DNA of 32,000 bases from Microcystis aeruginosa NIES-2549 (lineage in GTDB: Bacteria > Cyanobacteriota > Cyanobacteriia > Cyanobacteriales > Microcystaceae). Under the pieces are notes generated by a model. The model was not told the DNA's origin. It did no database searches and saw nothing but the letters and a program-made list of their open reading frames with translations. Location: assembly GCF_000981785.2 (NCBI RefSeq), contig NZ_CP011304.1:3540001-3572000 (forward strand), read 5' to 3'. This document shows, piece by piece, positions 4,707 through 20,668 of the stretch. The number at the start of each line of letters is the position of its first letter. Position 1 is the first letter of the stretch. The translations under genes and the position numbers were made by a program.

Positions 4707-4757
4707 TTCATAGCTTAATTCAGCAACGCCTTTTTACAAACAGGCTGAGAGGTTCCA

Positions 4758-5093: not shown

Positions 5094-5095
5094 GG

Positions 5096-5347
5096 TTGTC
5101 TATAGATCAGCCCCTAGTAAATGTATGGAGCATATTTGCTCAACCTCTGTTCCTTGAACAGTTTGAAGAACTTGTGACGCAGATTGAAGAGCTGCACCAC
5201 AAGTTTCCTCAAGATTACAAAAGGAAAAATGCGACAAAGCGTCTAGCTGCCATAGCAAAGTTAGCCTTTGATACTAAGTACCTAAGCAAAATTAATTACA
5301 CATATCTAACCCCCCCTTGCCTCTTGCCTTTTGCCTTTCTTCACTAG
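5096..5347 (+). pseudogene. yhaV: YhaV-family toxin, 3'-truncated by MITE insertion
   Basis: The N-terminal 60 aa ('VWSIFAQPLFLEQFEELVTQIEELHHKFPQDYKRKNATKRLAAIAKLAFDT') resemble the YhaV N-terminus ('GW.LYAHP.F...KNATK.LA'). From nt 5276 onward the frame reads into the 94-bp MITE and stops at 83 aa, whereas YhaV is ~150 aa. The start is TTG. Confidence 0.6.
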
Positions 5348-5370
5348 GAAATTTATTTTGCACGACTACT
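5277..5370 (-). mobile_element. 94-bp MITE, copy L (flanked by TA/TA)
   Basis: This is the reverse complement of 20573-20666. Perfect blocks of 27 bp (taagtacctaagcaaaattaattacaca, including the flanking TA) and 36 bp (tcttcactaggaaatttattttgcacgactacttag) surround a diverged T/C-rich centre. Termini are AGTA..../....TACT with TA on both sides. Confidence 0.65.
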
Positions 5371-5373
5371 TAG

Positions 5374-7053
5374 GGTTTGCTGAATAATGGTAAAAACCTT
5401 ACAGGAAAGGGCTTTTAGCTTGATTGAGAGCTTCCCAAATGCACTTAAATCTGCTAGAATCTCTTAAAACCCTTGCATCACCCTTGCATCTTCTCTAATT
5501 AGTGCTAATGTACCGTAAAAGCGAGTTACCCTCAACCCCACCAGAAAACTTCGAGCTGCCCTTTGAGGGGAAATTATCCCAAGACAATCGTTGGGTAATT
5601 ATGGCCAACCTCATTCCCTGGTCAGAATTTGAAGCGGAATACGCATCACTTTTTTCAGAAGAAATGGGCACACCCGCCAAAACATTCAGGACAGCACTCG
5701 GAGCATTAATTATTAAAGAAAAATTAGGAACAAGCGATAGAGAAACGGTAGAACAAATCAAAGAAAATCCTTATTTACAATACTTCTTGGGGTTTTCATC
5801 CTACAGCAATGAACCCCGGTTTGAAGCGTCAATGTTGGTTCACTTTCGAGAAAGAATCACTCTGGAACTAATTAATAAAGTGAATCGCTTTATGGTCAAA
5901 AATTCGAGAGAAATAAAAGAAGAAGAAAACACCGAAAAAAAGTTAGAGAGCGAAACCCAAAGTCAACCAGAAAATCGAGGTAAATTAATTTTAGATGCCA
6001 GTTGTGCGCCCGCAGATATTAGTTATCCTACGGATTTAAACCTGTTAAATCAAGGAAGAAAACAAACCGAAAAAATTATTGATATTCTCTATGAAACTTT
6101 AAAAGGAAAACTTGTTCAAAAACCGAGAACCTATCGTCTTCTAGCCAGAAAAAGTTATTTAGAAGTAGCGAAAAAAAGAAAACCTACCGTCAAACAAAGA
6201 CGAAAAGCTCTGAAAAGACAACTGCAATATCTGAAAAGAAATCTCGACCATATTGAACAACTTTTAGCAGAAGGAGCCTCTCTACAAAGCTTGAAAAAAA
6301 GAGACTATAAACTGTTGTTAGTAGTCACAGAAGTTTATCGTCAACAACTCTGGATGTACCAAAATAACAAACAGAGTATTGAAGACAGAATTGTCAGCTT
6401 AACTCAACCCCACATCCGTCCGATAGTCAGAGGAAAAGCTGGAAAACCCGTAGAATTTGGGGCTAAATTCTCAGCAAGCTGTATAGATGGTTACATATTT
6501 TTAGACCGAATTAGTTGGGATAACTTTAATGAATCAGGAGATTTAAAAGCACAAATAGAAGCTTATTATGACTATACAGGATACTATCCAGAATCAGTTC
6601 ATGTGGACAAAATTTATCGAACCAGAGAAAACCGAGCTTGGTGTAAAGAAAGGGGAATCAGAATCAGTGGTCCCCCATTAGGAAGACCAGCCAAAAATGT
6701 TAGTAAAGAACAAAAGAAACAAGCTACCGATGATGAGAGGATTCGGAATTGTATAGAGGGCAAATTTGGACAGGGGAAAAGAAGATTTAGCTTAGGTAAA
6801 GTGATGGCTAAACTTCCTCATACTTCCTTTTCAGCGATTGCTATTACTTTTTTAGTCATGAATCTTTCTAACCTGTTGAGGCAGGTTTTTTGGGCTTTTT
6901 TATGTCTGAAATGGAAAAACAGCACTTTTTCTCGGTCAATGATTAGGATAAGTTATAACTTAAAAATTAATCAACAACTAAAGCTTATGCTTGTAGCTAA
7001 GTGAAATCATTGATTAAGAGACCTGTACTTTTCAATGACTTTTTCAGCAAACC
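5374..7053 (+). mobile_element. IS5/IS1182-like insertion sequence (~1.68 kb) with 8-bp target duplication
   Basis: Terminal inverted repeats GGTTTGCTGAA (5374-) and TTCAGCAAACC (-7053), with further partial matches inward. The direct repeat CTACTTAG occurs at 5366-5373 and 7054-7061. A single transposase ORF lies inside. Confidence 0.75.
5502..7004 (+). CDS. DDE transposase with InsH/DUF772-type N-terminal domain (IS5/IS1182 group)
   Basis: The N-terminus ('FRTALGALIIKEKLGTSDRETVEQIKENPYLQYFLGF') is the conserved transposase N-domain of IS5/IS1182-type elements. The C-terminal part ('VHVDKIYRTRENRAWCKERGIRISG...RNCIEGKFGQGKRRF') fits a DDE_Tnp_1-like end. An alternative start is ATG 5508. 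Confidence 0.8.
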   Translation: MLMYRKSELPSTPPENFELPFEGKLSQDNRWVIMANLIPWSEFEAEYASLFSEEMGTPAKTFRTALGALIIKEKLGTSDRETVEQIKENPYLQYFLGFSSYSNEPRFEASMLVHFRERITLELINKVNRFMVKNSREIKEEENTEKKLESETQSQPENRGKLILDASCAPADISYPTDLNLLNQGRKQTEKIIDILYETLKGKLVQKPRTYRLLARKSYLEVAKKRKPTVKQRRKALKRQLQYLKRNLDHIEQLLAEGASLQSLKKRDYKLLLVVTEVYRQQLWMYQNNKQSIEDRIVSLTQPHIRPIVRGKAGKPVEFGAKFSASCIDGYIFLDRISWDNFNESGDLKAQIEAYYDYTGYYPESVHVDKIYRTRENRAWCKERGIRISGPPLGRPAKNVSKEQKKQATDDERIRNCIEGKFGQGKRRFSLGKVMAKLPHTSFSAIAITFLVMNLSNLLRQVFWAFLCLKWKNSTFSRSMIRISYNLKINQQLKLMLVAK

Positions 7054-7357
7054 CTACTTAGATATACATTACAGCCATCGAACTGCTTGTTTAGTACATA
7101 GACCAAAGGCAAGCTGTGACTGGGTTATAATTTTTGGAGATGTCTAATTCACAAGAGATATATTTCCGATCCTGAACAGCTTAATCAGCAAAGGTTTAAC
7201 TGTGCCACACAGGTGTGAGAAACGCTATAGTTTCTACAATGAAGGTTTTTCACAATCTTTCGTGTATTTTTTTATTGCTGGAAGTGTCGTAAATAGATCT
7301 ATCAAAAGGCTCTTACCTAATATAATTGGGAGAAAATTACCGATCAACATTTCCCCG

Positions 7358-10246
7358 ATGCTTGCCTCATCACGTCTTCAAGCCAGTAGGAGTAACCCCA
7401 CTGGACTCACTTCACCTCCCACGGTCGGTTCAATCGTGCGGTGCAGAAATCGTCAGTGGGTTGTTCTACCGAGTGAGCGAGAGGAGGTAATCATTCTACG
7501 TCCTTTATCGGGGAGTGAGGAACAAATCTGTGGAATTTACACCGTTTTAGGTGAAAAAATCGAATCCGCCACTTTCTCACCCCCAGAACCGCAAACTTTA
7601 CGCGACCACGAAGCTGGGCGATTACTCCTTGATGCGGCCAGATTAAGCCTTCGTAGCGGCGCGGGGCCGTTTCGGTGTCTGGGTCGCCTGTCAGTACGTC
7701 CCCGTCCGTACCAGATCGTTCCCTTGTTGATGGCACTCCGTCAGGAAACCGTAAGATTGTTAATCGCGGACGATGTGGGGATCGGTAAGACCGTAGAAAC
7801 CGCGTTAATCGCCCGCGAACTGCTCGATCGAGGGGATATCCAACGTATCGGAGTATTATGTCCCCCTCAATTATGCGATCAGTGGCAGAGGGAACTAAAG
7901 CAGAAATTTAATATTGACGCGGTAGTTATTCGATCGGGAACGGTAGCGAAACTGGAAAGAGAATTACCTTCAGGAAATAGCCATATTTTCAGTTATTACC
8001 GCCATATTATCGTTAGTCTCGATTATGCGAAATCCGATCGCCGTCGGGCTAGTTTTCTGGCGCATCGTCCCGATCTTGTGATCGTAGATGAAGCGCATAC
8101 CGCCACACAGAGTAAGGAAGGAGCGAATCAACAGCGACATCAATTGGTGAGTAAACTGGCGGAAAACCCCGATCAGCACCTGATCCTGTTAACCGCGACC
8201 CCTCACAACGGGATTGAAACTTCTTTTTTGTCCCTCCTGGGCTTTTTAAAGCCAGAGTTCAGCACTTTTCAATTAGACGCTCTTAGCGAGAAACAACGCG
8301 CCGAATTGGCCAAGCATTTCATCCAGCGTAGGCGTGCCGATGTTCAAGACTGGATGGCAGAAAATACGCCTTTTTCCATCCGAAAATCGATCGAGTACCC
8401 CTATCAACTATCCAACGAGTATCGAGAGTTATTCGATCGGGTTTTTGATTTCGTCCGTGGCCTAGTTCGTTCGGTCGATGAAAGTCTCAGCCACGCCCAA
8501 AAAAGGGGAAGGTATTGGGCGGCCTTGGCGATTATCCGATGCGTGATGTCCTCTCCTGCCGCCGCTATCGCTACCCTATCCAGACAGGCGGATAAAAACG
8601 CTAATCTCGACGATCTAGCCGAAAAAACCAGAGATGAATCGGTGGAAGATATCGATCGAGTTGCCTCTCCCTACGTCTATGACGTGACAGAAGAAGAATT
8701 GTCGGTGGACAGTACCCCGACCGCATTAGTCGAACAGAGTATCCGCACCTATCCGGACTCGGCGAGAAAAAGGCTGAGAGATTTCGCGAGAGCGGCGGAA
8801 CAATTAACGAGCAAAAAAGACCAAAAACTTCAATACACACTAAAAATCGTCAAAGAACTACTGACAGAAGGCTATAATCCCATTCTCTGGTGTCGCTATA
8901 TCGCTACCGCCAATTATTACGCCCAAGCTCTTAAAGCGGAGTTTGTGGGAAAAAGGGGCGTTCAACCGAGGGTTATCGCAATTACCGGCGAACTATCGGA
9001 AGACGAGCGGGAGATTCGCTTGGACGAATTAAAATCCTGTCCGCAAAGGGTTCTAGTGGCTACGGACTGCCTGAGTGAGGGGATTAATCTACAGGAACAC
9101 TTCAACGCTTGTTGCCATATAGATTTGCCGTTTAATCCCAACCGTTTAGAACAACGGGAAGGAAGGATTGATCGCTACGGACAGACGACCCCGCAACTCA
9201 AGTGTATTCTTCTCTACGGACAGGATAACCCTGTTGATGGTGTAGTGTTGGATGTTCTCTTGAGAAAAGCGGTGACGATCCATCGTAATCTAGGGATCAC
9301 CGTACCGATCCCGATGGACAGTGCAACGGTACAGGAGGCGATCTTTCAATCCCTGTTCGAGCGATCGACAACGGTACGTCAATTAAGCCTTTTTGACAGT
9401 AACCCAGCCCTGGCCTCACTTCATCAGGACTGGGAGAAAGCGAAGGAAAAAGAAATTCAAAACCGTACCCGTTTCGCCCAACGCTCGATCAAACCGGAAG
9501 AAGTTCAACAGGAATTGAATGAGTCCGATGAAATTCTTGGAAATGAAGCGGATGTGGAGCGATTTGTGCGGAACGCGCTCGATCGATGGGAAATATCGCT
9601 GGTTAAAAAGAAAGTTGGCTGGCAACTCTCCAGAATTCCCGATTGTTTGGAGATCGAAAATCGACCCCGAACGATCGCTTTTACTACCCCCGTTGCTGAG
9701 GGAGTGGAGTATGTGGGGCGGAATCATCCCCTTGTGGAGGGTTTAGCCCGTTATCTATTCGAGGAGGCACTAGAATCCTCCCACTCGATCGCCGAGAGTT
9801 CATCTCCCCCGTTCGCCTCCCGTTGTGGCGTTACCGTTACCAATGCGATCGCTAAACCGACTTTTATTCTGTTACTGCGCTCACGTCTCCTATTAACGGG
9901 ACGGAACACGCGTCCGCTTCTAGCGGAAGAATGTTTGGCAAGAGGTTTTACGGGAACTCCCGATCGACCGTGTTGGTTATCGGGAACGGAAACCCTCGCC
10001 CTGTTCGATACCGTTGTTCCCACCACAGATATATCTCAGGAGGAAAAACGAGAGTGGATCGAGATGGTGATTGATCGTCTGGAAGATTTAACGCCCAGTC
10101 TGACGGAGATCGCAACCGAAAGAGCCGAGACATTACTCGCCTCTCACCGACGGGTAAGACGGTTTACTGGCGAGGGAATGTTACAAAAAGTCGAGCCACA
10201 ATTACCGATGGATATTTTGGGCGTTTATATTCTCTTGCCGCCATAA
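7358..10246 (+). CDS. drmD: SNF2-family helicase (DISARM DrmD-like)
   Basis: Motif I 'DDVGIGKTVE', motif II 'VIVDEAHTA', motif III 'LLTATPHNG', helicase-C 'VATDCLSEGINLQ' and 'DLPFNPNRLEQREGRIDRYGQ'. The ORF is open from GTG 7202, but the first ATG (7358) precedes the conserved 'GSIVRCRNRQWVVLP' N-terminal block. The DrmD assignment comes from gene context. Confidence 0.75.
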   Translation: MLASSRLQASRSNPTGLTSPPTVGSIVRCRNRQWVVLPSEREEVIILRPLSGSEEQICGIYTVLGEKIESATFSPPEPQTLRDHEAGRLLLDAARLSLRSGAGPFRCLGRLSVRPRPYQIVPLLMALRQETVRLLIADDVGIGKTVETALIARELLDRGDIQRIGVLCPPQLCDQWQRELKQKFNIDAVVIRSGTVAKLERELPSGNSHIFSYYRHIIVSLDYAKSDRRRASFLAHRPDLVIVDEAHTATQSKEGANQQRHQLVSKLAENPDQHLILLTATPHNGIETSFLSLLGFLKPEFSTFQLDALSEKQRAELAKHFIQRRRADVQDWMAENTPFSIRKSIEYPYQLSNEYRELFDRVFDFVRGLVRSVDESLSHAQKRGRYWAALAIIRCVMSSPAAAIATLSRQADKNANLDDLAEKTRDESVEDIDRVASPYVYDVTEEELSVDSTPTALVEQSIRTYPDSARKRLRDFARAAEQLTSKKDQKLQYTLKIVKELLTEGYNPILWCRYIATANYYAQALKAEFVGKRGVQPRVIAITGELSEDEREIRLDELKSCPQRVLVATDCLSEGINLQEHFNACCHIDLPFNPNRLEQREGRIDRYGQTTPQLKCILLYGQDNPVDGVVLDVLLRKAVTIHRNLGITVPIPMDSATVQEAIFQSLFERSTTVRQLSLFDSNPALASLHQDWEKAKEKEIQNRTRFAQRSIKPEEVQQELNESDEILGNEADVERFVRNALDRWEISLVKKKVGWQLSRIPDCLEIENRPRTIAFTTPVAEGVEYVGRNHPLVEGLARYLFEEALESSHSIAESSSPPFASRCGVTVTNAIAKPTFILLLRSRLLLTGRNTRPLLAEECLARGFTGTPDRPCWLSGTETLALFDTVVPTTDISQEEKREWIEMVIDRLEDLTPSLTEIATERAETLLASHRRVRRFTGEGMLQKVEPQLPMDILGVYILLPP

Positions 10247-10283
10247 AAATTCCCGAATTTCAACTCTTCACGCTATTTTCGCC

Positions 10284-13200
10284 ATGAATAACGCCGCCGC
10301 CTACCGTATCGCCGGAAATCTACTCGCGTCTGACATGACCACCGAAATCGCTTCGGGAGAAAAGGATGGTCAGAGCAATATTCATTTCGGTCTGGAGCGA
10401 TCGATCAAGTTGGAGGACGAGATCGCTTTCGTTTGGGGCGAGGCCAAGGATCAGTGGCAGATTTTCCAACGTCGTTTAAAACGACTGGGGGAAAGCGATA
10501 CGGGAACGTCAACAACGCGGGAATTTTGGGTGATTCCCCTGCTTAAACTGCTCGGCTATCAACCCGTCTTACAAGAGAGAGCGGAGACGGTAGATGGTCA
10601 AACTTTCGCCATCTCCCATCGGGCTGGTTTTGGAGACGGGACGGGCGATCTTTCCCCTCTCGAATCGCCCCCGGTTCATATCGTCAGTTGTAAGCAATCC
10701 CTAGAGCAACGTCCGCCCTCCGGTCGTCCCCGACTTTCCGCTCACGCTCTAGTACAGGAATACCTGAACCGTACCGAGCATTTATGGGGAGTCGTTACCA
10801 ACGGGTTACGATGGCGACTCCTGCGGGATTGCTCTTTGATGACCCGATTGACCTTTATCGAGTTCGATCTAGAGCAGATCGTCCAGAATGAGAATTACGC
10901 GGAATTCTGCCTGTTTTATCGGCTTTTCCACCGTACCCGTTTACCGTGGGGAGTCGAGGATGTGGATAGCTGTTTTCTGGAAGTCTATCACCAAGATGCG
11001 TTAGAACAGGGGGGACGGGTACGGGAGCGGCTACGCGACGGGGTTGAACAGGCTTTACTACTATTGGGAACCGGTTTCTTACAACACCGCCAAAATCAGC
11101 GTTTAAGAGAGGCGATCAACTCCAGGGAGTTGTCGGAACGGGATTATTACCGGTCCCTGTTGTTGTTGATTTACCGCTTGTTATTTCTAATGGTGGCGGA
11201 GTCCCGTAATCTACTGTTAGCAGGGGAAGACGAGGGAAAAGCTCGAATTTACAGCGAGTATTATAGTGTCTTCCGGTTGCGAGCCTTGGCCGAGCGGAAA
11301 AGTTACCTTCGGGAGGGTTTTCAGGACAATTGGCAGGGGTTGAGGGTCACGTTTAGTCTATTCGACGAGAGTTGGCGCGGGGAATTATTGGGGTTATCGC
11401 CCTTGAACGGTGATCTGTTCGGCTCGAATTCCTTGAAATTGCTAGAAGATTTGGCGATCGATAATCACGATCTACTTCTGGCTATCCGTCATCTCTCTCT
11501 GTACGAGAATCGCGGTCAATTACGCCGCGTGAATTACGCCGCGCTCGACGTGGAGGAGTTGGGAAGTGTTTACGAGAGTTTATTGGATTTCACACCGAGA
11601 ATTGTCAATGAATCCGTATCTTACCGTTTTCTCTTGGTAATCGGGAGCGATCGTAAAACCACCGGATCCTATTACACCCCCCCCGCGTTAGTCGGACAGT
11701 TAATCAAATCGGCTTTAGAACCGGTTATCGCCGACAAGCTGAAAGGGAAGGAATCGCCTGAAGACAAGGAAAAAGCTTTATTATCCCTGACCGTATGCGA
11801 TCCCGCTTGTGGGAGCGGTCATTTTCTACTCGCGGCGGCGCGGCGTATCGGCAAGGAATTAGCCCGCGTCCGTAGCGGGGAAGATCAACCCTCTCCCGAA
11901 GAGATCGGGAAAGCCACCCGCGACGTGATCCAAAATTGTATCTACGGGGTGGATTTAAACCCTCTCGCGGTGGATCTGTGTAAGGTCGCCCTGTGGATCG
12001 AGGGTTTTTGCAAGGGATTCCCGCTTAATTTCCTCGATCACCGGATTAAATGCGGGAATTCTCTAGTGGGGGTGATGGATCTCGATGTGCTGAAAGAGGG
12101 GATTCCCGACGAAGCTTATAAAGCGGTCACGGGCGATGATAAATCTCTCGCTACCAAGCTGAAAAAATCTAACAAGGAACAGTGCAAGGTTCCGAAAGGT
12201 CAGTTGTCGCTATTCCAGGATATAGATTTCGAGGTTCGGCAGGGGAACTATGCGGAAGGCTCGCGGCATCTCAACCGCATCACCGATTCGACTCCCGCGG
12301 AATATCACCGCAAACAGGAACGCTACGAGGAATTACGCGCTGATTCTCAATGGTGGCAGGATTTTTCCGCCTGTAATCTCTGGACGGCGGCATTTTTTAT
12401 GCCTTTAACCGAGGCGAATTTACAGCTTATCCCCACTACGGAAGCCCTCCGTCGTCTCCTACGGGAAGCGGAACAGCGTCAGCAACGGAACCCCCTTCAA
12501 GGTTCTCTCTTCGCTGACGGGGAAACCTCTTCCTCGACTCCTTTTAGCGTGACGCGAATTGTCGAGGCGGCGAATAATCTCGCGAGAGAACAGCGATTTT
12601 TTCACTGGTGTCTGGAATTTCCCGAAGTGTTCGCCGAAGGGGGATTTAGCTGTGTTTTAGGAAATCCACCGTGGGAACTATTACAAATAGCGGAGAAGGA
12701 GTTTTTTGCTTCTAAAGATGAAAGTATCGCTAATGAAAAAGATAGTTCTAAAAGAAAAAAACAAATCCAGCAATTGGCAAAAACAAATCCTCAGTTATTA
12801 CAAATGTTTGAAAATACAAAGCATGATGCAGACGCACAAAATAAATTTATTCGAGAGTCAGGAAGATTTTTATTAACACTAAGAGGGAAAATTAATACTT
12901 ATTCTGTCTTTGCTGAACTAGTTAAAAACCTAATGTCTTCTCAAGGAAAAAGTGCAGTAATTATTAAATCTGGTATTGCAACAGATGATTCTAATAAAGA
13001 TTTCATTCAAAACGTTGTTAGTAATTGTTTACTAACTAGCTTTTTTGACTTTAACAATGAAGATTATATTTTTAAAGACATAGAACATACAGTTTCATTC
13101 GCTATTCTGACTTTATCCAACATTCCATGTAGTCAGGTATATTTTGCTTCACAGCTAAGAAATTTAAATCAACTTAAAAATCCTCTAAAGCTTTATGGAT

Positions 13201-14279
13201 TGAGTAGTGACGAAATAAGACTTTTTAATCCTAATACTCTAAATCTTCCTATTTTTCAGTCTATAGAAGATCTGAAATTGGTCAGAAAAATTTATCAAAA
13301 AGTTCCTGTTTTAAGCAATCTTAAAAAGAAAGAAAACCATTGGAAAGCTTTCTTTAGACAAGGATTGTTTAATATGACATCTGAACGAGAAATATTTTGG
13401 ATAGAAAGTGAGTTAATCACCAATAATTTTAATTTAAAACGAAATGTATATTTTAAAGAAAATATTATTTATTTGCCTCTTTATGAATCTAAAAACACAG
13501 ATCAATATAATCATCGGTTTGCAGGTTTTGAAGGAATTAAAGAAGAAGAAAGATACCGTAATAGACCTCCCATTAATGAGGCTAATCAACAGCAGTTGGC
13601 TAATGTTACTTGGCAAATTACACCGAGATACTGGGTACAGAATCAATCTGTTGATTTAAAAATCCCCGAACAGTGGAAATATAACTGGTTAATAGGTTTT
13701 CGGAATGCTATTAATGCTTTTGCCGATTCAAGAAGCGTAAGATTTACACTTATTCCTAAGTGTGGTGTTGGCAATTCTATGCCTTTAATCTTTTCGGAAG
13801 AAAAGCCTAAAATGTTATGCTGTTTAGTAGCTAATTTTAATTCATTGATTCTTGATTATGTTGCAAAACAAAAAGCAAGTGGTGGAAATTTAAACTTTTA
13901 TGTTGTCAAACAACTCCCTATCATTCCCCCAAACTGGTACACATCAGAAGACATCGAATACATTAGCGATCGAGTCCTTGAATTAGTATACACCGCTTAC
14001 GACATAAGACCCTTCGCTGAAGATATGGGATACTACGGCGAACCCTTCATCTGGGATGAAGACCGACGGGCGAAACTGCGCGCCGAACTCGATGCGAAAT
14101 ACGCCAAACTCTACGGCTTGACCCGTGACGAGCTAAGGTATATCCTAGATCCCGCCGATGTTTACGGCGAGGATTTCCCCTCGGAAACCTTCCGAGTCCT
14201 CAAGAATAACGAGATGAAGAAGTACGGCGAATACCGCACCCGTCGCCTAGTTCTAGAGGCTTGGGATTCAATGAAATAA
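10284..14279 (+). CDS. drmMI: Large Eco57I/type IIG-like N6-adenine DNA methyltransferase (DISARM DrmMI-like)
   Basis: SAM motif I 'VCDPACGSGHFLLAAA' (~11808-11834). Catalytic motif IV 'GNPPWE' (NPPW = 12663-12674). The size is 1331 aa. It lies 37 nt downstream of the SNF2 gene. Confidence 0.8.
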   Translation: MNNAAAYRIAGNLLASDMTTEIASGEKDGQSNIHFGLERSIKLEDEIAFVWGEAKDQWQIFQRRLKRLGESDTGTSTTREFWVIPLLKLLGYQPVLQERAETVDGQTFAISHRAGFGDGTGDLSPLESPPVHIVSCKQSLEQRPPSGRPRLSAHALVQEYLNRTEHLWGVVTNGLRWRLLRDCSLMTRLTFIEFDLEQIVQNENYAEFCLFYRLFHRTRLPWGVEDVDSCFLEVYHQDALEQGGRVRERLRDGVEQALLLLGTGFLQHRQNQRLREAINSRELSERDYYRSLLLLIYRLLFLMVAESRNLLLAGEDEGKARIYSEYYSVFRLRALAERKSYLREGFQDNWQGLRVTFSLFDESWRGELLGLSPLNGDLFGSNSLKLLEDLAIDNHDLLLAIRHLSLYENRGQLRRVNYAALDVEELGSVYESLLDFTPRIVNESVSYRFLLVIGSDRKTTGSYYTPPALVGQLIKSALEPVIADKLKGKESPEDKEKALLSLTVCDPACGSGHFLLAAARRIGKELARVRSGEDQPSPEEIGKATRDVIQNCIYGVDLNPLAVDLCKVALWIEGFCKGFPLNFLDHRIKCGNSLVGVMDLDVLKEGIPDEAYKAVTGDDKSLATKLKKSNKEQCKVPKGQLSLFQDIDFEVRQGNYAEGSRHLNRITDSTPAEYHRKQERYEELRADSQWWQDFSACNLWTAAFFMPLTEANLQLIPTTEALRRLLREAEQRQQRNPLQGSLFADGETSSSTPFSVTRIVEAANNLAREQRFFHWCLEFPEVFAEGGFSCVLGNPPWELLQIAEKEFFASKDESIANEKDSSKRKKQIQQLAKTNPQLLQMFENTKHDADAQNKFIRESGRFLLTLRGKINTYSVFAELVKNLMSSQGKSAVIIKSGIATDDSNKDFIQNVVSNCLLTSFFDFNNEDYIFKDIEHTVSFAILTLSNIPCSQVYFASQLRNLNQLKNPLKLYGLSSDEIRLFNPNTLNLPIFQSIEDLKLVRKIYQKVPVLSNLKKKENHWKAFFRQGLFNMTSEREIFWIESELITNNFNLKRNVYFKENIIYLPLYESKNTDQYNHRFAGFEGIKEEERYRNRPPINEANQQQLANVTWQITPRYWVQNQSVDLKIPEQWKYNWLIGFRNAINAFADSRSVRFTLIPKCGVGNSMPLIFSEEKPKMLCCLVANFNSLILDYVAKQKASGGNLNFYVVKQLPIIPPNWYTSEDIEYISDRVLELVYTAYDIRPFAEDMGYYGEPFIWDEDRRAKLRAELDAKYAKLYGLTRDELRYILDPADVYGEDFPSETFRVLKNNEMKKYGEYRTRRLVLEAWDSMK

Positions 14280-14314
14280 TCGAACAATTTTTTATCTTTC
14301 TGAAACATTATGTA

Positions 14315-14621
14315 GGGTCTGCTGAATAAATCTAAAAACCTTGTTGGGTAAGACTTTTAGACTTTTTGTCAATCAAAAAGTACCAGGCATGGGAGTGATC
14401 AGGGGGAAAATTGAGGTACTTTTTCCCTGAAAATTAGGTAGTTGACCACGGCGGTTCGACAAGCTCACCGTCCTACTCGACTGAGCTTCGCCGAACGTCC
14501 TGAAAATGGATAAAACCCCACACCCGTTCGGACTTCGGCGTGAGCTCAGTCGAACGCTGAGCTCACGGCCGAAGCCCACACCCCACACCCTGCCCCCACG
14601 AAAAACTTTTTCAGCAGCCCC
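14315..14621 (+). mobile_element. ~307-bp non-autonomous element (MITE) derived from the IS5/IS1182-like IS
   Basis: The left end 'gggtctgctgaataaatctaaaaaccttgttgggtaagacttttag' closely matches the IS left end 'gggtttgctgaataatggtaaaaaccttacaggaaagggcttttag'. The right end 'ctttttcagcagcccc' matches the IS right end 'ctttttcagcaaaccc'. There is no transposase inside. The interior is a GC-rich palindromic module (14440-14580). The target duplication is ambiguous (ATTATG at 14307-14312 and 14624-14629 if the ends are extended by TA). Confidence 0.65.
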
Positions 14622-14687
14622 TAATTATGATAAATCTCTTTATCGAGCCGGGCATTTTAAGAGAAAGGACTCATCCACGAAATACCC

Positions 14688-17600
14688 ATGATTCTCAAAG
14701 ACCTCCTCGCCGGTGGAATTCCCGCCATAACCGCTACCAGCACTTTTATCGGAATGGGAATGCTTCCCCAAAAGCTCAATGCAAACGGGGTGGATACCCT
14801 CACTGACGAACAAATCGAAGCCCTTTTCTCCAATATTCCCGCGGATTGGAGTTTCTCCGACCTAGCCGAGAGAGTCTTTGACGAGTCAACCGTAAGTGAG
14901 TCTCTAGCCGATCGACTGATCGCCTATATCGATCAAAAACACGGCGGGGAATCTCTTACCCCCGAACCGCGGGAATCATCCGAACCCGAAGGGGATAGCC
15001 CCCGAAAATTCGATATTTTTACCCTCCGAGATGAAATTGTCGAGGATTACCGGGGATACATCGAGAGCTTTCTGAGTATTAAGGACAAACGGATAAAAGA
15101 GTTCGTCAATAGGGAATTAGACCGGGGACAACTCTGGAAAGATCCCCTCGTCCAACTCAATCCCCCTTACAAACGTGGCGCGACCGTCGGCCAGCTGATC
15201 GGACGCGGGATACTCCATCAGGACTGCGATCGCTACTTCCCGAACTTCACCTTTTTCGAGCATCAAGAAACCGCCTTTCAACTAGCCCGCCAGAATTTAC
15301 CCTACGTCGTCACCACGGGAACCGGGTCGGGAAAAAGCTTGACCTATGTAGTCCCGATCATTAACGACATCCTCGAAAACCCGACATTACAGGGAGTTAG
15401 AGCTATTTTGGTCTATCCGATGAACGCGCTCATAAACTCTCAAGAGGAAGAATTCAAGAAATTTCTAGAGAATATCCCCGATAGCCCGATTAAAGTAGCT
15501 AAATATACGGGACAAGAATCTTTAACGGAAAAAGCCGAGATACAGAACAATCCGCCCCATATCCTCCTGACGAACTATGTGATGTTGGAGTTGATGCTTA
15601 CCCGCGTCCACGAGGATAAACTGGTAGCTTCGCCCGACCTGAAATTCTTGGTACTCGACGAACTGCATACCTATCGCGGTCGTCAGGGCGCGGATGTAGC
15701 CCTAGTAATCCGAAAACTCAAAAGGCGATGCGATAAGTCCTTAGTCTGTATCGGCACATCGGCCACCATGTCCACCGAGGGCGATCGGGCCGATCGGAAG
15801 CGAACCGTCGCCGAAGTCGCCAGTAAACTTTTCGGTGTCGAGATCTCCCCCGATCGAGTGATCGATGAAACCCTGGAACGCGCTATTTCCCGCCCCGATC
15901 CAACGGTAGCCGAACTACAACAGTCTCTACAGCAAGAAGTCTCCCCCGAAGAAGAACAAACCGACGAAGCTTTCCAACAGCATCCGCTCGTCGCATGGAT
16001 CGAGATGAATTTGGGATTAGAGGAGGAAGATGGCTATTTAAAACGCCGTACCCCCATATCTCTTAAGGAAGCAGCTGACCAGTTAGCCAAGTTAACCAAG
16101 ATCGATACCGGTGTCTGTCTCGATCGATTACGGGAGATGTTACTCTGGAGCGGTCGGTTAAACGCTAGTAAAACGAAGAATTCCAGAGAGGTCAGAGGTC
16201 TTCCCTTCCGCCTACATCAGTTTATTTCCCAAGGTGGCAGTGTCTATGCGACCATCGAACCCCACGAACGACGGGAATTAACCCTAGAAGGGCAGTATCG
16301 AACTACTCGTGATCGATTGCTCTTTCCGATCGTGTTCTGCCGAGAATGCGGTCACGACTATTATGTGGTTCGCTACGATTCCGAAAAGTACCAGATTACG
16401 CCTCTAATTCCCACGGCGATCGACGAGGAAAACGACGAGGATATTACCGAGGGATATTTAACTCTCGACGAACCCGATCTATGGGACATCAATGACGAGG
16501 AACGCTTACCAGATACTTGGTTTAACTTAAATAAAAGCGGACGGAAAGTCAAAAAAGATTTCGCTAAGTTTATCCCGCGAGAACTGTATGTTTATCCGGA
16601 TGGCAGGATCGTCACGGGAGCGTTTAGCACCGACGATCCGATTCAACCCGTTCGTTGTTGGTTTATTCCTAAACCCTTTTTAACTTGCTTGAACTGCGGT
16701 GTTGTGTATGATCGCAAGACTACCGAATACCGCAAACTATCCCGTCTTAGTAGTGAGGGGCGTAGTACCGCCACCACTCTACTCTGTCTCTCCACCGTCA
16801 ACCGCTTAAAGCTGAATCTGAATATTCAAGAAACTGCGGCGAAAATCCTTAGCTTCACCGATAATCGTCAGGACGCTTCCTTACAAGCAGGTCATTTTAA
16901 CGATTTCGTGCAAACTTCCTTTTTACGGGGCAGTTTAAATAGAGCTTTGCAAAACCACGGATATCTAACCCACGCGGAATTAGCGGCAAAAGTAGTGAAC
17001 GCGATGGGGCTAACTCAAGAACAATACGCTGAACAACCTGTCACCTTCGGTACCGGCAAAACTCGCAACGAGAAGGCTTTTGAGGATCTGATTCAGTATC
17101 GCCTCTACGACGATTTAAAACGGGGCTGGCGCATTGTCCAACCGAATTTAGAACAATCCGGTTTACTGGCGATCGAGTACCCGGATTTAGAAAACAACTG
17201 TCAAAATCTCGCTCCCTGGCAAAAATACCCTCATCCCGTTCTCGTCTCGGCAACTCCAGAGCAACGTTTAAAAGCGGCCAGCTTTTTACTGGATCATTTA
17301 CGGAAAAATTTAGCCCTAGACGCAGACTTACTTCAGTCAAATCGTCTCAACGAGTTACAGAGACGAGTAAATCAAGCTCTTAACCAGGCTTGGAAATTCG
17401 ATGATCATGAATACCTTCCTCCCGCAACAAAAGCTTCTCACCTTAACAATCCTCGATCGGGAGCCACGGTGAAGTTAACCGCGAAAAGTAAAGTCGGGAA
17501 GTATTTGCGATCGGAGCAATTATGGGGACACAAGGTTACGGAAGCCGAATATGAAAGCTTAATTGTATCTTTAATCAATGCTCTAGCGGATTCCGGGTAT

Positions 17601-20033
17601 CTCAAGCGAGAGGGAACGGAAATTCAGCTACGGGTGGATTCGATGGTATGGAAAGCGCAGAAAGTCGATCGGGTAAAACTCGATCCCACCGTTCGGAAAC
17701 TCCGGGATAGCCTTCTCGAAGAGCGGGAAGTGAACGCTTACTTTCAGAACTTTTATGATCGACAGGCCACGACGATCCGCAAAATGGAAGGGCGGGAACA
17801 TACTGGACAGGTTGCCAACGACAAACGCCAAGAACGAGAGGAGAAGTTTCGGAAAGGGGAACTAGCGGCTTTATTTTGCTCACCAACAATGGAGTTAGGG
17901 ATCGACATTTCCGATTTAAGTATCGTCCATCTACGCAACGTCCCTCCCTCGCCCGCAAATTACGCTCAAAGAAGTGGACGGGCCGGTCGGGGCGGACAGG
18001 AAGCCCTCGTTATCACTTATGCGGCCTACGGAAACGGTCACGATCAATATTTTTATAATCGACAGGCACAAATGGTGTCGGGGGTTGTTGTTCCCCCGAA
18101 ATTGGAACTAGCTAACCCCGATCTGGTTAAATCCCATCTTTATTCGCTCTGGCTTTCCTACACGGGGGTCGATCTAGGTAACTCGATGAATCAAATCCTC
18201 GACTTAGAGAAAGACGGATACCCGATTAAAGACGGTATCTGGCAACAGTTAAAGTTATCTTCCAATAAACTCAACCTGTGTTGGGATGATGCTCGCACGA
18301 TTCTCGGTGATGTTTATTGTCAGGGGGATCTCGCTCAAACAAACTGGTACAGTGCAGACTGGCTGAAACAGACTCTAGAAAATGCCTCTGACGAGTTCCA
18401 CAATACTTGCAATCGCTGGCGTAGGTTGTACCGAGAAGCGACCGAGCAGTTACAAAAAGCCCGCGAGACTATCGATCGAGCCGTTAGAGGTGGAGTGACC
18501 GACGAGGAGAAAAAGAAAGCGAATGTTTCAGAAGAAGATGCCAAGCGTCAACGGGACTTATTGGTAGGATCGGACAGGAAAGGGCGTTCTCAAAGCGAGT
18601 TTGAATTTTATCCCTACCGTTATTTTGCCAGCGAGGGATTTTTACCTGGATTTAATTTCCCCCGTCTCCCCGTGCGTGGTTTTATTCCCGCAGGGAACAA
18701 GGGAGAATTTATCTCCCGCCCTCGTGCCGTCGCTATTCGAGAACTAGCTCCCAGAAATATCATTTATTACGAGGGCAGTAAATTCCAGATCGCGAGAACG
18801 AGAATTTCGCCTCAAGGAGAACAGCAGTTCCGCCGAATTTCGGCTTGTTCTCGATGCGGTTATTTCCATGCCGATACGGAAGCGAATCGAGATACCTGTG
18901 AAAACTGCGGTGCTAGGCTCCAAGATCGGCTCTACCATGTTCTCGTACTCGATACGATGATTACCCGTAGAAGGGAACGGATCACCTGTGACGAGGAAGA
19001 CAGACTCAAGTACGGCTATATTCTGACCACCCATTTTCGCTACGACTCCCATAAACGTCGTAAAGCTCTAGTAACCGCGGCGGACAGTACGGAACTTCTA
19101 AAAATTTCCTACGGGGAAACCGCCAGTATCCGACGAATTAATCGAGGTTTACGATTTAATCAAGAGCGAGGATTTAGATTGGATACCGCGAAGGGAGAAT
19201 GGTTAGATGCGAAACAAGATAACCCATCCAGTAACTCGCAAGCGGGCATTAGCCTGATGGTAGAAGATACCCGTAATATTCTCGTCGTCGAACCCTGTTG
19301 GGGTAAGGCCGATCTCGCTCCGGAATTCCTAATCACCTTTCAACACGCTTTAGCGAGAGCGATACAAGCTCATTACAAATTGGAGGCCGAAGAATTAGCC
19401 TCGGAAAAATTGGGCGAGGGAGGATACATTCTCTTTTGGGAGTCTGCCGAGGGAGGAGCGGGAGTCTTAGCTCAAATTCTCGATAATCCCACATCTTTCC
19501 AGAATTTAGCCCAACAAGCCCTTGATATATGCCATTTTAAGCAGGATAAGCCCGATTGCGCTCAAGCCTGTTACGAGTGCTTGTTATCCTATCAAAATCA
19601 GTTTGACCATCCCTATCTAAATCGACATTTGATTAAAGATTTTCTAGAACAGCTTGCCGGAAGTCGGTTATCCTTCTCCCAAGAGGGCGATCGGGAACAA
19701 TCCTATCAAATCCTTCTCCAACAAAGCGATCCCAATTCGGAATACGAGAAAGTCGTGTTAAAGGCTATTTATGAGCAGGGCCTGCCACTGCCAGATCGGG
19801 CGGGAGTATATATCCCCGATGCGGACTGCAAACCTGATTTCATCTACGAGAATCTTAAAATTGCAATTTTCTGCGATGGCTCGGTTCACGATCATCGCGA
19901 TCAACAGGAACAAGATCGCGTCAAACGAGAGAATCTAAAATGGCACGCCCGTTATAAAGTTTTTAGTTTTAATTACCAATCAGACTTACAGGAGCAAATA
20001 GATAAACTACAAGCCATGTTAAGTCCAACATAA
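14688..20033 (+). CDS. drmA: DEAD/DEAH helicase fused to DUF1998 (MrfA-type Zn-binding) and a C-terminal Vsr/DUF559-like PD-(D/E)xK domain (DISARM DrmA+DrmB-like fusion; DruE-like is the alternative)
   Basis: Helicase motif I 'TTGTGSGKS', motif II 'VLDELHTY', 'GTSATM', motif VI 'YAQRSGRAGRGG'. DUF1998 hallmarks are 'CSRCGYFH...CENCGA' (~18844-18912) and 'CAQACYECLLSYQNQ' (~19558-19602). The C-terminus 'CKPDFIYENLKIAIFCDGSVHDH' resembles the Vsr/DUF559 core 'PD....A+F.DG..WH'. Confidence 0.8.
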   Translation: MILKDLLAGGIPAITATSTFIGMGMLPQKLNANGVDTLTDEQIEALFSNIPADWSFSDLAERVFDESTVSESLADRLIAYIDQKHGGESLTPEPRESSEPEGDSPRKFDIFTLRDEIVEDYRGYIESFLSIKDKRIKEFVNRELDRGQLWKDPLVQLNPPYKRGATVGQLIGRGILHQDCDRYFPNFTFFEHQETAFQLARQNLPYVVTTGTGSGKSLTYVVPIINDILENPTLQGVRAILVYPMNALINSQEEEFKKFLENIPDSPIKVAKYTGQESLTEKAEIQNNPPHILLTNYVMLELMLTRVHEDKLVASPDLKFLVLDELHTYRGRQGADVALVIRKLKRRCDKSLVCIGTSATMSTEGDRADRKRTVAEVASKLFGVEISPDRVIDETLERAISRPDPTVAELQQSLQQEVSPEEEQTDEAFQQHPLVAWIEMNLGLEEEDGYLKRRTPISLKEAADQLAKLTKIDTGVCLDRLREMLLWSGRLNASKTKNSREVRGLPFRLHQFISQGGSVYATIEPHERRELTLEGQYRTTRDRLLFPIVFCRECGHDYYVVRYDSEKYQITPLIPTAIDEENDEDITEGYLTLDEPDLWDINDEERLPDTWFNLNKSGRKVKKDFAKFIPRELYVYPDGRIVTGAFSTDDPIQPVRCWFIPKPFLTCLNCGVVYDRKTTEYRKLSRLSSEGRSTATTLLCLSTVNRLKLNLNIQETAAKILSFTDNRQDASLQAGHFNDFVQTSFLRGSLNRALQNHGYLTHAELAAKVVNAMGLTQEQYAEQPVTFGTGKTRNEKAFEDLIQYRLYDDLKRGWRIVQPNLEQSGLLAIEYPDLENNCQNLAPWQKYPHPVLVSATPEQRLKAASFLLDHLRKNLALDADLLQSNRLNELQRRVNQALNQAWKFDDHEYLPPATKASHLNNPRSGATVKLTAKSKVGKYLRSEQLWGHKVTEAEYESLIVSLINALADSGYLKREGTEIQLRVDSMVWKAQKVDRVKLDPTVRKLRDSLLEEREVNAYFQNFYDRQATTIRKMEGREHTGQVANDKRQEREEKFRKGELAALFCSPTMELGIDISDLSIVHLRNVPPSPANYAQRSGRAGRGGQEALVITYAAYGNGHDQYFYNRQAQMVSGVVVPPKLELANPDLVKSHLYSLWLSYTGVDLGNSMNQILDLEKDGYPIKDGIWQQLKLSSNKLNLCWDDARTILGDVYCQGDLAQTNWYSADWLKQTLENASDEFHNTCNRWRRLYREATEQLQKARETIDRAVRGGVTDEEKKKANVSEEDAKRQRDLLVGSDRKGRSQSEFEFYPYRYFASEGFLPGFNFPRLPVRGFIPAGNKGEFISRPRAVAIRELAPRNIIYYEGSKFQIARTRISPQGEQQFRRISACSRCGYFHADTEANRDTCENCGARLQDRLYHVLVLDTMITRRRERITCDEEDRLKYGYILTTHFRYDSHKRRKALVTAADSTELLKISYGETASIRRINRGLRFNQERGFRLDTAKGEWLDAKQDNPSSNSQAGISLMVEDTRNILVVEPCWGKADLAPEFLITFQHALARAIQAHYKLEAEELASEKLGEGGYILFWESAEGGAGVLAQILDNPTSFQNLAQQALDICHFKQDKPDCAQACYECLLSYQNQFDHPYLNRHLIKDFLEQLAGSRLSFSQEGDREQSYQILLQQSDPNSEYEKVVLKAIYEQGLPLPDRAGVYIPDADCKPDFIYENLKIAIFCDGSVHDHRDQQEQDRVKRENLKWHARYKVFSFNYQSDLQEQIDKLQAMLSPT

Positions 20034-20666: not shown

Positions 20667-20668
20667 TA

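What the first reader, a model, noticed from the sequence alone, without database searches (positions are those of the whole stretch)
12680..13930. Abrupt ~1.25-kb AT-rich cassette inside the methyltransferase ORF, starting right after the NPPW catalytic motif (possible swapped target-recognition module)
Seen in the sequence:
- Composition changes sharply within one uninterrupted ORF. Hand counts on 60-nt lines give 11821-11880 = 39/60 G+C, 12721-12780 = 17/60 G+C, and 14041-14100 = 34/60 G+C.
- The shift begins within ~20 nt after NPPW (12663-12674) and reverts near 13930.
- The cassette composition resembles the AT-rich right half of the window rather than the rest of the defence locus.

Established knowledge: in gamma-class/type IIG-like methyltransferases, the region C-terminal to motif IV usually carries target recognition. 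Specificity changes by domain exchange are well documented for R-M systems.

Inference: the gene is a mosaic whose specificity-determining segment was replaced by recombination with a low-GC donor or a resident paralog.
Basis: partly seen in the sequence, partly recalled or inferred. Interest (0 to 1): 0.7.

Follow-up and report, generated by a model that had tools for sequence, protein, structure and literature searches.

The report
Swapped DNA-reading module in defence methyltransferase
A Microcystis anti-phage methyltransferase gene carries a 1.2-kb AT-rich middle section that has been replaced by recombination while the rest of the gene stayed 99% identical between strains; this is a real but familiar way for such enzymes to change which DNA sequence they mark.

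Summary
In ORF 10284-14279, G+C falls from 0.52 (GC3 0.56) to 0.30 (GC3 0.20) between about 12677 and 13895, then returns to 0.49 (Fisher p = 9e-37).

The gene is a PglX-like N6-adenine methyltransferase. It lies between an SNF2 helicase and a YprA/DUF1998 helicase. This is an ARMADA type I-like system of Microcystis aeruginosa, not canonical DISARM.

Two other alleles are 99% identical in DNA from 7200 up to the NPPW codons. They show no detectable DNA similarity across the cassette (37-41% aa identity) and become similar again from about 13895. Strains NIES-2481 and NIES-44 carry smaller replaced tracts inside the same cassette.

The structure model suggests the cassette holds the post-motif-IV part of the catalytic domain plus the target-recognition domain. 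The mosaic, specificity-swap reading is therefore supported.

The "one low-GC donor or resident paralog" idea is not supported:
- No close donor was found (best 55-61% aa identity).
- The AT-rich dip is family-wide: 63 of 64 orthologs show it.
- Backbone and cassette identities are uncoupled (r = 0.18).

No silent cassettes were found, so this is allelic replacement rather than programmed switching. I rate it a new member of a known kind, of moderate interest.

The parts
7202..10246 (+). armA-like SNF2/RapA (BrxHII/DrmD-like) helicase gene. It is part of the conserved backbone of the defence module.
   Evidence: Pfam SNF2-rel_dom and Helicase_C. PADLOC DpdE/DrmD. NCBIfam DrmD scores 361 bits, below the 610 cut-off. 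It is 99% identical in the alleles L001 and L003.
10284..14279 (+). armB-like PglX-type N6-adenine DNA methyltransferase gene (1331 aa). This is the mosaic gene.
   Evidence: Pfam Eco57I, N6_Mtase and MmeI_Mtase. It is 100% identical to M. aeruginosa WP_159297382. Its fold resembles CamA, M.BseCI, BrxX/PglX, BpuSI and M.TaqI.
11799..11819 (+). SAM-binding motif I (DPACGSG, aa 506-512).
   Evidence: Translation. These columns are invariant in a 20-sequence alignment.
12150..12676 (+). Left shoulder: a conserved homology arm with a raised density of differences between alleles. It ends in the NPPW codons (12663-12674).
   Evidence: About 20 differences fall in the last ~500 nt, against roughly 1 per 400 nt upstream. 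Identity collapses at 12668-12677.
12677..13895 (+). AT-rich replaceable cassette (aa 799-1204).
   Evidence: G+C 0.298 and GC3 0.197. No blastn similarity to L001 or L003, and 37-41% aa identity. Its nearest relatives anywhere are 55-61% identical.
12678..13163 (+). Cassette sub-module 1: a helical insert after motif IV (aa ~804-858), plus methyltransferase motifs V-VIII and strands beta5-7 (aa ~867-960).
   Evidence: DSSP on the AF2 model. The end of the Pfam Eco57I model maps to cassette residues 69-132. TIGR02987 aligns to aa 785-1018. In NIES-2481 the tract 12746-13178 was replaced separately, at about 14% divergence.
13164..13895 (+). Cassette sub-module 2: predicted target-recognition domain (aa ~961-1204).
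   Evidence: An alpha/beta region with pLDDT mostly 80-98, placed as in related methyltransferases whose target-recognition domain is C-terminal. It is the least conserved part of the family. In NIES-44 the tract 13198-14069 was replaced separately, at about 12.6% divergence.
13896..14276 (+). Conserved C-terminal helical domain (aa 1205-1331). Its first ~175 nt (13896-14070) form the right shoulder, where recombination junctions scatter.
   Evidence: G+C returns to 0.49. Identity to L001 and L003 is 92% at first and about 99% after ~14070. Family identity is 75-88%.
14688..20033 (+). armC-like YprA-family DEAD/DEAH helicase, fused to DUF1998 (MZB) and to a weak Vsr-like C-terminal nuclease signature.
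   Evidence: Pfam DEAD, Helicase_C and MZB. The best PADLOC match is DruE. The C-terminal 181 aa match MTES_1575, Vsr and DUF559 below threshold.

Best explanation
The AT-rich block (about 12677-13895) is the exchangeable DNA-reading module of a PglX-like N6-adenine methyltransferase (ArmB). This enzyme belongs to an ARMADA type I-like anti-phage system of Microcystis aeruginosa.

The module was replaced by homologous recombination. Crossovers fell in the two conserved arms that flank it: the catalytic NPPW region on the left and the start of the conserved C-terminal domain on the right. A third junction lies at the hinge between the methyltransferase domain and the target-recognition domain, which allows half-module exchanges.

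The module holds the post-motif-IV part of the catalytic domain and the target-recognition domain. Replacing it is therefore expected to change the sequence that is methylated. In systems where the same protein guides defence, it would also change the sequence that is policed. One event would reset self-marking and phage targeting together.

Shown here: the mosaic, its breakpoints, family-wide cassette shuffling, and the lack of local silent copies.

Inferred: the change of specificity, its defence benefit, and the cause of the low G+C. For the last point I favour a long separate history of the cassettes as a highly mobile, weakly host-adapted pool.
For: - Composition: a sharp change at synonymous sites.
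- Whole-cassette replacement: alleles L001/L002 and L003 are 99% identical over 5.5 kb up to NPPW, unrelated in DNA across the cassette, and similar again afterwards.
- Partial replacement: NIES-2481 has a replaced tract at 12746-13178 and NIES-44 one at 13198-14069. Both differ by 12-14%, mostly at synonymous sites, in loci that are otherwise 98-99.75% identical.
- Family-wide uncoupling: across 180 proteins, backbone versus cassette identity gives r = 0.18, while the two flanks give r = 0.72. Dozens of pairs have at least 96% backbone identity and only 33-50% cassette identity.
- Reciprocal case: L015 and L074 are 84% identical in the backbone and 97.6% in the cassette.
- Structure: the fold and motif layout place motifs V-VIII and the target-recognition domain inside the cassette.
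- Precedent: in BrxX, every base-specific contact lies between NPPY and the end of the target-recognition domain, and that domain is the most variable part.
- ArmB role: ArmB and its NPPW motif are needed for ARMADA II defence, and armB is the variable gene of the E. coli island.
- Mobility: the family is often plasmid-borne, and the three-gene module sits in a different context in NIES-44.
Against: - No methylome or biochemical data are available, so the specificity change is only inferred.
- The donor of this cassette is unknown; the best match is 55-61% identical.
- The ARMADA assignment rests on architecture. The Vsr-like nuclease is sub-threshold and no BrxA-like insert was detected by sequence.
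- The cause of the AT-richness is unresolved.
Confidence: 0.85

Rival explanations
1. One reading: a single import from a low-GC donor genome, or from a resident low-GC paralog, explains both the mosaic and the AT-richness.
For: The cassette's G+C (0.30, GC3 0.20) matches the AT-rich genes at 20.9-27.8 kb in the window. The gene is clearly recombinant.
Against: - The other Microcystis alleles also carry AT-rich cassettes, with G+C 0.32-0.34.
- Sixty-three of 64 orthologs show the dip.
- Cassette GC3 follows backbone GC3 with a slope of only 0.42.
- There is no second copy in the window.
- No relative above 61% identity turned up in three large searches.
- A resident paralog elsewhere in the genome could not be strictly excluded. 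The word-index search missed long proteins, including the query's own protein.
Confidence: 0.12
2. The low G+C comes from an evolutionary process, not from donor composition. Cassettes too divergent to pair escape GC-biased gene conversion and codon selection, so they drift toward the AT-rich mutational equilibrium. The frequently recombining conserved arms stay GC-richer. This is compatible with the mosaic and concerns only the cause of the dip.
For: The dip is family-wide. The backbone is on average 0.022 above the neighbouring DNA and the cassette 0.06 below it. GC1 and GC2 are also shifted, and the cassette is enriched in N, K, I and F, which points to long exposure to AT pressure.
Against: - The dip is block-like rather than tracking local conservation. 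Poorly conserved aa 631-690 show no dip, while well-conserved aa 841-900 do.
- Two WOR-3 orthologs with G+C 0.63 show almost no dip.
- No direct test of gene conversion was possible.
Confidence: 0.3
3. In-place rapid divergence: diversifying selection, hypermutation or DGR-type mutagenesis of one ancestral cassette, with amino-acid bias producing the composition.
For: The target-recognition region is the least conserved part of the family.
Against: - The flanks are 99% identical, including synonymous sites, while the cassette has no detectable DNA similarity and abrupt edges.
- GC3 carries the strongest signal.
- Within-type tracts show ordinary substitutions, with 51 synonymous against 24 nonsynonymous codons and no adenine bias.
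- The Pfam scans of the window's large ORFs found no reverse transcriptase, and no template repeat (second copy of the cassette) is present in the window.
Confidence: 0.03
4. Programmed intragenomic switching: a shufflon or inversion system that exchanges the expressed cassette with silent partial copies, as described for DISARM-like methyltransferases in other phyla.
For: Programmed inversions target DrmMI-like genes in loci with fused YprA-DUF1998 helicases (PMC9881135).
Against: - There is no second cassette or C-terminal fragment in the 32-kb window.
- None lies within 6 kb on either side in 64 orthologous loci.
- No invertase was found next to the gene, only an IS5-family transposase.
- The short cassette-only proteins seen in databases are contig-end fragments or split genes.
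Confidence: 0.03
5. Assembly artefact: a chimeric contig that joins reads from two organisms.
For: None specific. Metagenomic contigs of relatives often break near the cassette.
Against: The same allele, intact and in frame, occurs in independent assemblies. These include the complete genomes of NIES-2549 and NIES-2481 and the NIES-44 draft.
Confidence: 0.01

Closest known systems
ARMADA type I/II (DISARM-related Antiviral Defense Array) ArmB methyltransferase (bioRxiv 10.1101/2025.09.15.676423; mBio PMC13463889)
   Same: The three-gene core is the same: an SNF2/BrxHII-like helicase, a PglX-like NPPW methyltransferase, and a YprA helicase fused to DUF1998. The gene order is the one reported for cyanobacteria. 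In E. coli ARMADA II, armB is the one variable gene of an otherwise conserved island.
   Different: The text I searched in those papers does not describe where armB varies, its breakpoints or its composition. The Vsr-type nuclease is only a sub-threshold match here, and the BrxA-like insert was not detected by sequence. There is no ArmD.
BREX BrxX/PglX (PDB 9ewz, 8q56, 8c45; PMC11842806)
   Same: It is a large gamma-class N6-adenine methyltransferase with the layout N-terminal domain, methyltransferase domain, target-recognition domain, C-terminal domain. The target-recognition domain is the most variable part. Base contacts come from a loop after motif IV plus the target-recognition domain. 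Changing that domain changes the site and the defence.
   Different: Sequence similarity is limited to the SAM-binding region, and NCBIfam scores lie far below the cut-offs. The partner proteins differ. The C-terminal domain is much shorter (127 aa against about 370).
Type I HsdS and Type IIG/IIL (MmeI family) target-recognition-domain exchange, including 'domain movement' in Helicobacter (my own knowledge plus review PMC12707154)
   Same: Conserved arms flank unrelated recognition modules. Recombination in the arms creates new specificities. One protein sets both modification and restriction specificity.
   Different: Here the exchanged unit starts directly at catalytic motif IV and carries about a third of the catalytic fold. 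No endonuclease domain was detected in the same polypeptide. Exchange is between genomes, not between repeats in one gene.
Class 1 DISARM DrmMI
   Same: PADLOC DrmMI models match the catalytic core at aa 449-798 (1e-85). The neighbouring SNF2 helicase resembles DrmD.
   Different: DrmA and DrmB are fused into one 1781-aa protein whose best match is DruE, not DrmA. There is no DrmC/PLD gene. DrmD scores below the curated cut-off.

Membership tests
ARMADA type I | YprA-family DEAD/DEAH helicase carrying DUF1998 (MZB) in one polypeptide | tested here: met
   ORF 14688-20033 has DEAD, Helicase_C and MZB. Its best PADLOC matches are DruE, in line with ARMADA YprA homologs being closest to Druantia.
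ARMADA type I | Adjacent BrxHII/RapA-like SNF2 helicase and PglX-like methyltransferase, in the order helicase, methyltransferase, YprA, as reported for cyanobacteria | tested here: met
   Genes at 7202-10246, 10284-14279 and 14688-20033 are all on the + strand.
ARMADA type I | Active Vsr-type (PD-(D/E)xK) nuclease at the C-terminus of the YprA homolog | tested here: inconclusive
   The C-terminal 181 aa match MTES_1575 (E = 0.0012), Vsr (0.0075) and DUF559 (0.02). All are below the Pfam cut-offs.
ARMADA type I | BrxA-like helical insert after RecA1 | tested here: inconclusive
   A relaxed Pfam scan of aa 370-1030 found no BrxA/DUF1819 hit. The original claim rests on structure, which I did not model.
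ARMADA type I | Placement of the YprA homolog inside the ARMADA clade of the published tree | not tested
Class 1 DISARM | Separate DrmA helicase and DrmB (DUF1998) proteins, plus a DrmC PLD nuclease | tested here: not met
   The helicase and DUF1998 are fused. No PLD domain occurs in the 18 larger ORFs of the window that were scanned.
Class 1 DISARM | DrmD equivalog score | tested here: not met
   NCBIfam NF038317 scores 361.6 bits against a cut-off of 610.
Gamma-class N6-adenine DNA methyltransferase with C-terminal target-recognition domain (PglX / Type IIG-IIL-like) | Motif I (DPACGSG) upstream of motif IV (NPPW), followed by motifs V-VIII and then a target-recognition domain | tested here: met
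   Translation and invariant columns. Pfam Eco57I and N6_Mtase. AF2 model and Foldseek hits to CamA, M.BseCI, BrxX, BpuSI and M.TaqI at E = 1e-9 to 1e-5.
Type IIG restriction-modification enzyme | Endonuclease domain in the same polypeptide | tested here: inconclusive
   The N-terminal 439 aa have no Pfam match at E <= 1. I did not model their structure.
Allelic specificity-module exchange by recombination (Type I HsdS, MmeI or PglX style) | Near-identical flanks with an unrelated middle, and the reciprocal case of the same module on diverged backbones | tested here: met
   Window against L001 and L003: 99%, no similarity, then 92-99%. L015 against L074: 84%, 97.6% and 90%. Family r = 0.18.
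Allelic specificity-module exchange by recombination (Type I HsdS, MmeI or PglX style) | Different cassettes give different methylated motifs | not testable with these tools
   This needs SMRT or ONT methylomes, or REBASE records, for NIES-2549, NIES-2481, NIES-44 and strains carrying types B and C.
Programmed-inversion (shufflon-type) phase-variable methyltransferase | Silent partial gene copies nearby, plus a site-specific recombinase | tested here: not met
   There is no extra copy in the window or within 6 kb on either side in 64 ortholog loci. Pfam found only an IS5-family DDE transposase.

The most novel reading that the evidence does not exclude
In this methyltransferase family, the segment from just after NPPW to the start of the C-terminal domain may be a distinct evolutionary unit. 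It would be a horizontally circulating pool of 'read-head' modules that are systematically AT-rich and plug into any backbone through three fixed junctions: after NPPW, at the hinge between the methyltransferase and target-recognition domains, and at the boundary with the C-terminal domain. Their composition would record a separate history or a different recombination and mutation regime from the backbones. If so, G+C dips alone could locate the specificity modules of PglX-like defence methyltransferases, and the junctions would give natural design rules for re-targeting ARMADA- or BREX-type systems.
Probability: 0.35. Interest if true: 0.55.

Novelty: new member of a known kind. Interest (0 to 1): 0.4.

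Why it matters
It provides a cleanly mapped natural case of how a recently named defence system (ARMADA) changes its target. One recombination event replaces every sequence-reading part of the methyltransferase, while the parts that presumably contact the helicase partners stay fixed.

The three junctions, and the finding that half-modules can be exchanged, are directly usable for engineering specificity. They also help interpret strain-level differences in phage susceptibility within bloom-forming Microcystis.

The family-wide AT-rich signature is a cheap marker for locating specificity modules. It also raises a question about composition evolution in recombining defence genes.

It does not reveal a new kind of mechanism.

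Tried and rejected
- Silent cassettes or a local shufflon: tblastn and blastn of the gene against the window found only itself. No extra C-terminal copies lie within 6 kb on either side in 64 ortholog loci.
- Donor search: the word-index search with the cassette alone gave at best 55-61% identity. It oddly omitted long proteins, including the query's own, so it cannot exclude a long paralog. An exact 23-mer from the backbone found nothing in JGI metagenomes. A cassette-based scan of JGI metagenomes gave at best 42%. A full HMMER scan of 1.84 billion representatives gave at best 55%.
- The short cassette-only proteins (P0121, P0130) turned out to be a contig-end fragment and a split gene, not reservoirs.
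- A scan of viral contigs found no family member.
- A sequence-only PDB search gave just a weak MmeI match at the SAM-binding region.
- DGR-like mutagenesis: there is no adenine bias in the substitutions.
- Rfam found nothing in 4-21 kb, and the repeat search in the armB-armC spacer found nothing notable.
- Literature searches found no explicit statement that target-recognition domains are systematically AT-rich.
- I could not retrieve E. coli armB DNA to test whether the dip extends to ARMADA II.
- No Microcystis methylome for these strains turned up in the held library.

Full report
**1. Observation**

The window holds one uninterrupted ORF at 10284-14279 (+ strand, 1331 aa). NPPW is encoded at 12663-12674.

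| Segment | G+C | GC3 |
|---|---|---|
| 10284-12677 | 0.518 | 0.561 |
| 12678-13895 | 0.298 | 0.197 |
| 13896-14276 | 0.491 | 0.567 |

In the middle segment GC1 is 0.39 and GC2 is 0.30.

The change is largest at third codon positions. GC3 counts are 80/406 in the cassette against 520/925 in the flanks (Fisher p = 9e-37). The block lies 13 SD below all equal-sized windows of the surrounding 7.2-20 kb island. An unsupervised two-breakpoint fit to GC3 returns 12642-13913.

**2. What the gene and locus are**

The protein carries motif I (DPACGSG, aa 506-512) and motif IV (NPPW, aa 794-797). It matches Pfam Eco57I, N6_Mtase and MmeI_Mtase. It is 100% identical to a Microcystis aeruginosa protein (WP_159297382). 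The same allele type occurs in strains NIES-2549, NIES-2481 and NIES-44.

Upstream lies an SNF2/RapA-like helicase gene (7202-10246). Downstream lies a 1781-aa DEAD/DEAH helicase fused to DUF1998/MZB (14688-20033). The C-terminus of that helicase has sub-threshold Vsr, MTES_1575 and DUF559 matches.

This is the architecture recently named ARMADA: ArmA, ArmB and ArmC. The gene order is the one reported for cyanobacteria (bioRxiv 10.1101/2025.09.15.676423).

It is not canonical class 1 DISARM, for three reasons:
- The helicase and DUF1998 are fused.
- No PLD gene is present.
- The DrmD model scores 361 bits against a cut-off of 610.

I file it as ARMADA type I-like. Two defining features remain unconfirmed.

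**3. Evidence for a recombinational mosaic**

A search with the full protein found a large cyanobacterial family, plus two very close alleles, P0002 and P0003. Identity to the window by region is as follows:

| Region (aa) | P0002 | P0003 |
|---|---|---|
| 1-450 | 100% | 100% |
| 451-799 | 99% | 99% |
| 800-1216 | 41% | 37% |
| 1217-1331 | 94% | 94% |

At the DNA level, their contigs (L001/L002 and L003) are 99% identical to window 7200-12730. They show no blastn similarity across the cassette and are 92-93% identical from 13869-13877 onward.

Base-level alignment places the left edge at 12668-12677, directly after the NPPW-E codons. The right edge is at about 13890-13900. On both sides there are shoulders (12150-12676 and 13896-14070) where differences are denser than further out. 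This is what junctions resolved at varying points would leave.

L001 and L003 stay identical to each other for about 200 nt beyond NPPW before they diverge. Different allele pairs therefore have different junctions.

**4. Smaller exchanges inside the same cassette type**

- NIES-2481 shares the window's 24-kb context at 98.9-99.75% identity. Of its 81 differences in armB, 60 fall in 12746-13178, about 14% divergence.
- NIES-44 has about 110 differences in 13198-14069, about 12.6% divergence.

The changes are mostly synonymous (51 synonymous against 24 nonsynonymous codons for NIES-2481). They are ordinary transitions in both directions, not adenine-directed.

The two tracts meet at about 13180-13198 (aa 966-972). 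This coincides with the predicted boundary between the catalytic fold and the target-recognition domain. The gene therefore has three junction hot-spots.

**5. Anatomy of the cassette**

An AlphaFold2 model of aa 440-1331, built from 111 aligned sequences, has mean pLDDT 78. Most 10-residue blocks of the cassette score 80-98; the first blocks just after NPPW and one short loop score lower.

After NPPW the model shows:
- a helical insert (aa ~804-858);
- the motif V helix and strands beta5-7 (aa ~870-960);
- an alpha/beta domain (aa ~960-1204);
- a helical C-terminal domain (aa 1205-1331).

The Pfam Eco57I model ends at about aa 930, and TIGR02987 aligns to aa 785-1018. Foldseek matches CamA, M.BseCI, BrxX/PglX, BpuSI and M.TaqI. 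All of these are gamma-class adenine methyltransferases with a C-terminal target-recognition domain.

In BrxX, NPPY is at residues 508-511. A methyltransferase-domain loop at 587-601 reads one base pair, and the target-recognition domain (651-837) reads the others. That domain is the most variable part of BrxX (PMC11842806).

The window's cassette thus corresponds to the segment that holds all base-specific contacts in the closest solved relative. This supports, but does not prove, that cassette exchange changes the methylated motif.

**6. Family-wide picture**

I retrieved 80 orthologous loci. Sixty-four had intact genes that could be split into left part, cassette and right part.

- In 63 of the 64, the cassette is AT-richer than the left part. 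The mean differences are -0.083 in G+C and -0.13 in GC3 (Wilcoxon p = 4e-12).
- The largest drops occur on GC-rich backbones, for example 0.586 to 0.382.
- Among cyanobacteria, cassette GC3 follows backbone GC3 with slope 0.42. The C-terminal tail follows it with slope 0.81.
- The dip is block-like. Poorly conserved aa 631-690 show none, while well-conserved aa 841-900 do.
- Across 180 family proteins, backbone and cassette identities are nearly uncorrelated (r = 0.18). The two flanks correlate at r = 0.72.
- Dozens of pairs have at least 96% backbone identity but only 33-50% cassette identity.
- The reciprocal signature also exists. L015 and L074 are 84% identical in the left part, 97.6% in the cassette and 90% in the right part.
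- Sub-blocks of the window's cassette have different nearest relatives.

The family is common on cyanobacterial plasmids. In NIES-44 the three-gene module (window 7038-20537) sits in a different genomic context.

**7. Interpretations tested and not supported**

- Amino-acid-driven bias and in-place hypermutation are contradicted by the GC3 signal, the abrupt edges and the substitution spectrum.
- Programmed switching with silent copies is known for DISARM-like methyltransferases in other phyla (PMC9881135). It is not supported here. There is no extra copy in the window or within 6 kb on either side in 64 loci, and no invertase.
- An assembly chimera is excluded by independent complete genomes.
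All alleles and nearly all orthologs share the dip, and no relative closer than 55-61% exists in three large searches.
- A paralog elsewhere in the Microcystis genome could not be strictly excluded.

**8. Mechanism**

Shown:
- Homologous recombination in conserved arms has repeatedly replaced the whole module or one of its halves.
- Cassettes move between backbones.

Inferred:
- Each replacement resets the m6A motif that marks self DNA.
- ArmB and its NPPW motif are required for ARMADA II defence, so the replacement would also reset the sequence the system polices. This is the logic of Type I HsdS, MmeI-type and BREX enzymes.
- The constant N-terminal part and C-terminal domain presumably keep contacts with ArmA and ArmC.

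The cause of the low G+C is open. I favour a long separate history of cassettes as a highly mobile, weakly host-adapted pool. The alternative, or an addition, is AT-biased drift of segments that cannot pair and so escape GC-biased conversion.

**9. Novelty and score**

Specificity-module exchange is well established for Type I, Type IIG/IIL and BREX methyltransferases. armB has already been noted as the variable gene of E. coli ARMADA II islands (PMC13463889). I therefore rate this a new member of a known kind.

Three points may be new, because I found no statement of them in the papers searched:
- the exact swap unit, which starts at motif IV and includes part of the catalytic fold;
- the three junctions;
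- the family-wide synonymous-site AT-richness of the cassette.

Interest is 0.4. The finding is a clear, well-mapped example with practical value for engineering and strain typing, but it would not surprise a specialist.

Noticed in passing
window 7038-20537; L091 6755-20186: The armA-armB-armC module occurs as a discrete ~13.5-kb unit in a different genomic context in M. aeruginosa NIES-44. There it lies next to CRISPR-Cas genes (DevR/DevT, Cas5d, Cas1, Cas2), and the downstream genes differ. The module itself therefore appears to be mobile within Microcystis.
   Followed up: partly
window 1-7004: The module's left flank looks like a mobile element. ORF 582-1676 resembles a TrwB/TraG-like coupling protein, and G+C is 0.51-0.55, well above the 0.39-0.43 of the ordinary-looking genes at 28-32 kb in this window. 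An IS5-family DDE transposase (DUF772 + DDE_Tnp_1_2) lies at 5502-7004 with G+C 0.37. The NIES-2481 annotation also shows a PrlF/YhaV toxin-antitoxin pair just upstream of the transposase.
   Followed up: no
window 20500-27800: This is a 7-kb block with G+C about 0.30 and GC3 0.17-0.27. It has ORFs of 549 aa and 777 aa with no Pfam, PADLOC or NCBIfam match, plus a DUF1822 protein and an Rce1-like CAAX protease. It may be another accessory or defence island. It matches the cassette in composition but not in sequence.
   Followed up: partly
window 29374-31518: Three consecutive pentapeptide-repeat protein genes (191, 193 and 226 aa).
   Followed up: no
window 14313-14449 and 5335-5421; L091 6521-6693: A short repeated element (86-90% identity) lies in the armB-armC spacer. 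It recurs near the transposase and also upstream of armA in NIES-44. The spacer also has a ~50-nt indel relative to NIES-2481, at about 14525-14575. It may be a MITE-like repeat. Rfam gave no hit and no strong inverted repeat was found.
   Followed up: partly
P0047, P0056, P0065 (homologs of the window methyltransferase): Some cyanobacterial family members (1474-1479 aa) carry added DUF559 and MTES_1575 (Vsr-like nuclease) domains. The same weak signature appears at the C-terminus of the window's ArmC.
   Followed up: no
L088 (P0121) and L089 (P0130): Database proteins consisting of the cassette plus the C-terminal domain are not independent genes. One is cut off by a contig end just upstream of the cassette. 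The other is the second half of a split methyltransferase gene (642 + 660 aa). Contig breaks at this point may reflect cassette heterogeneity within populations.
   Followed up: partly
(tool behaviour): The word-index homolog search with the 383-aa cassette returned only proteins of 669 aa or less. It missed the query's own 1331-aa protein, so negative results from that search are unreliable for long targets.
   Followed up: yes
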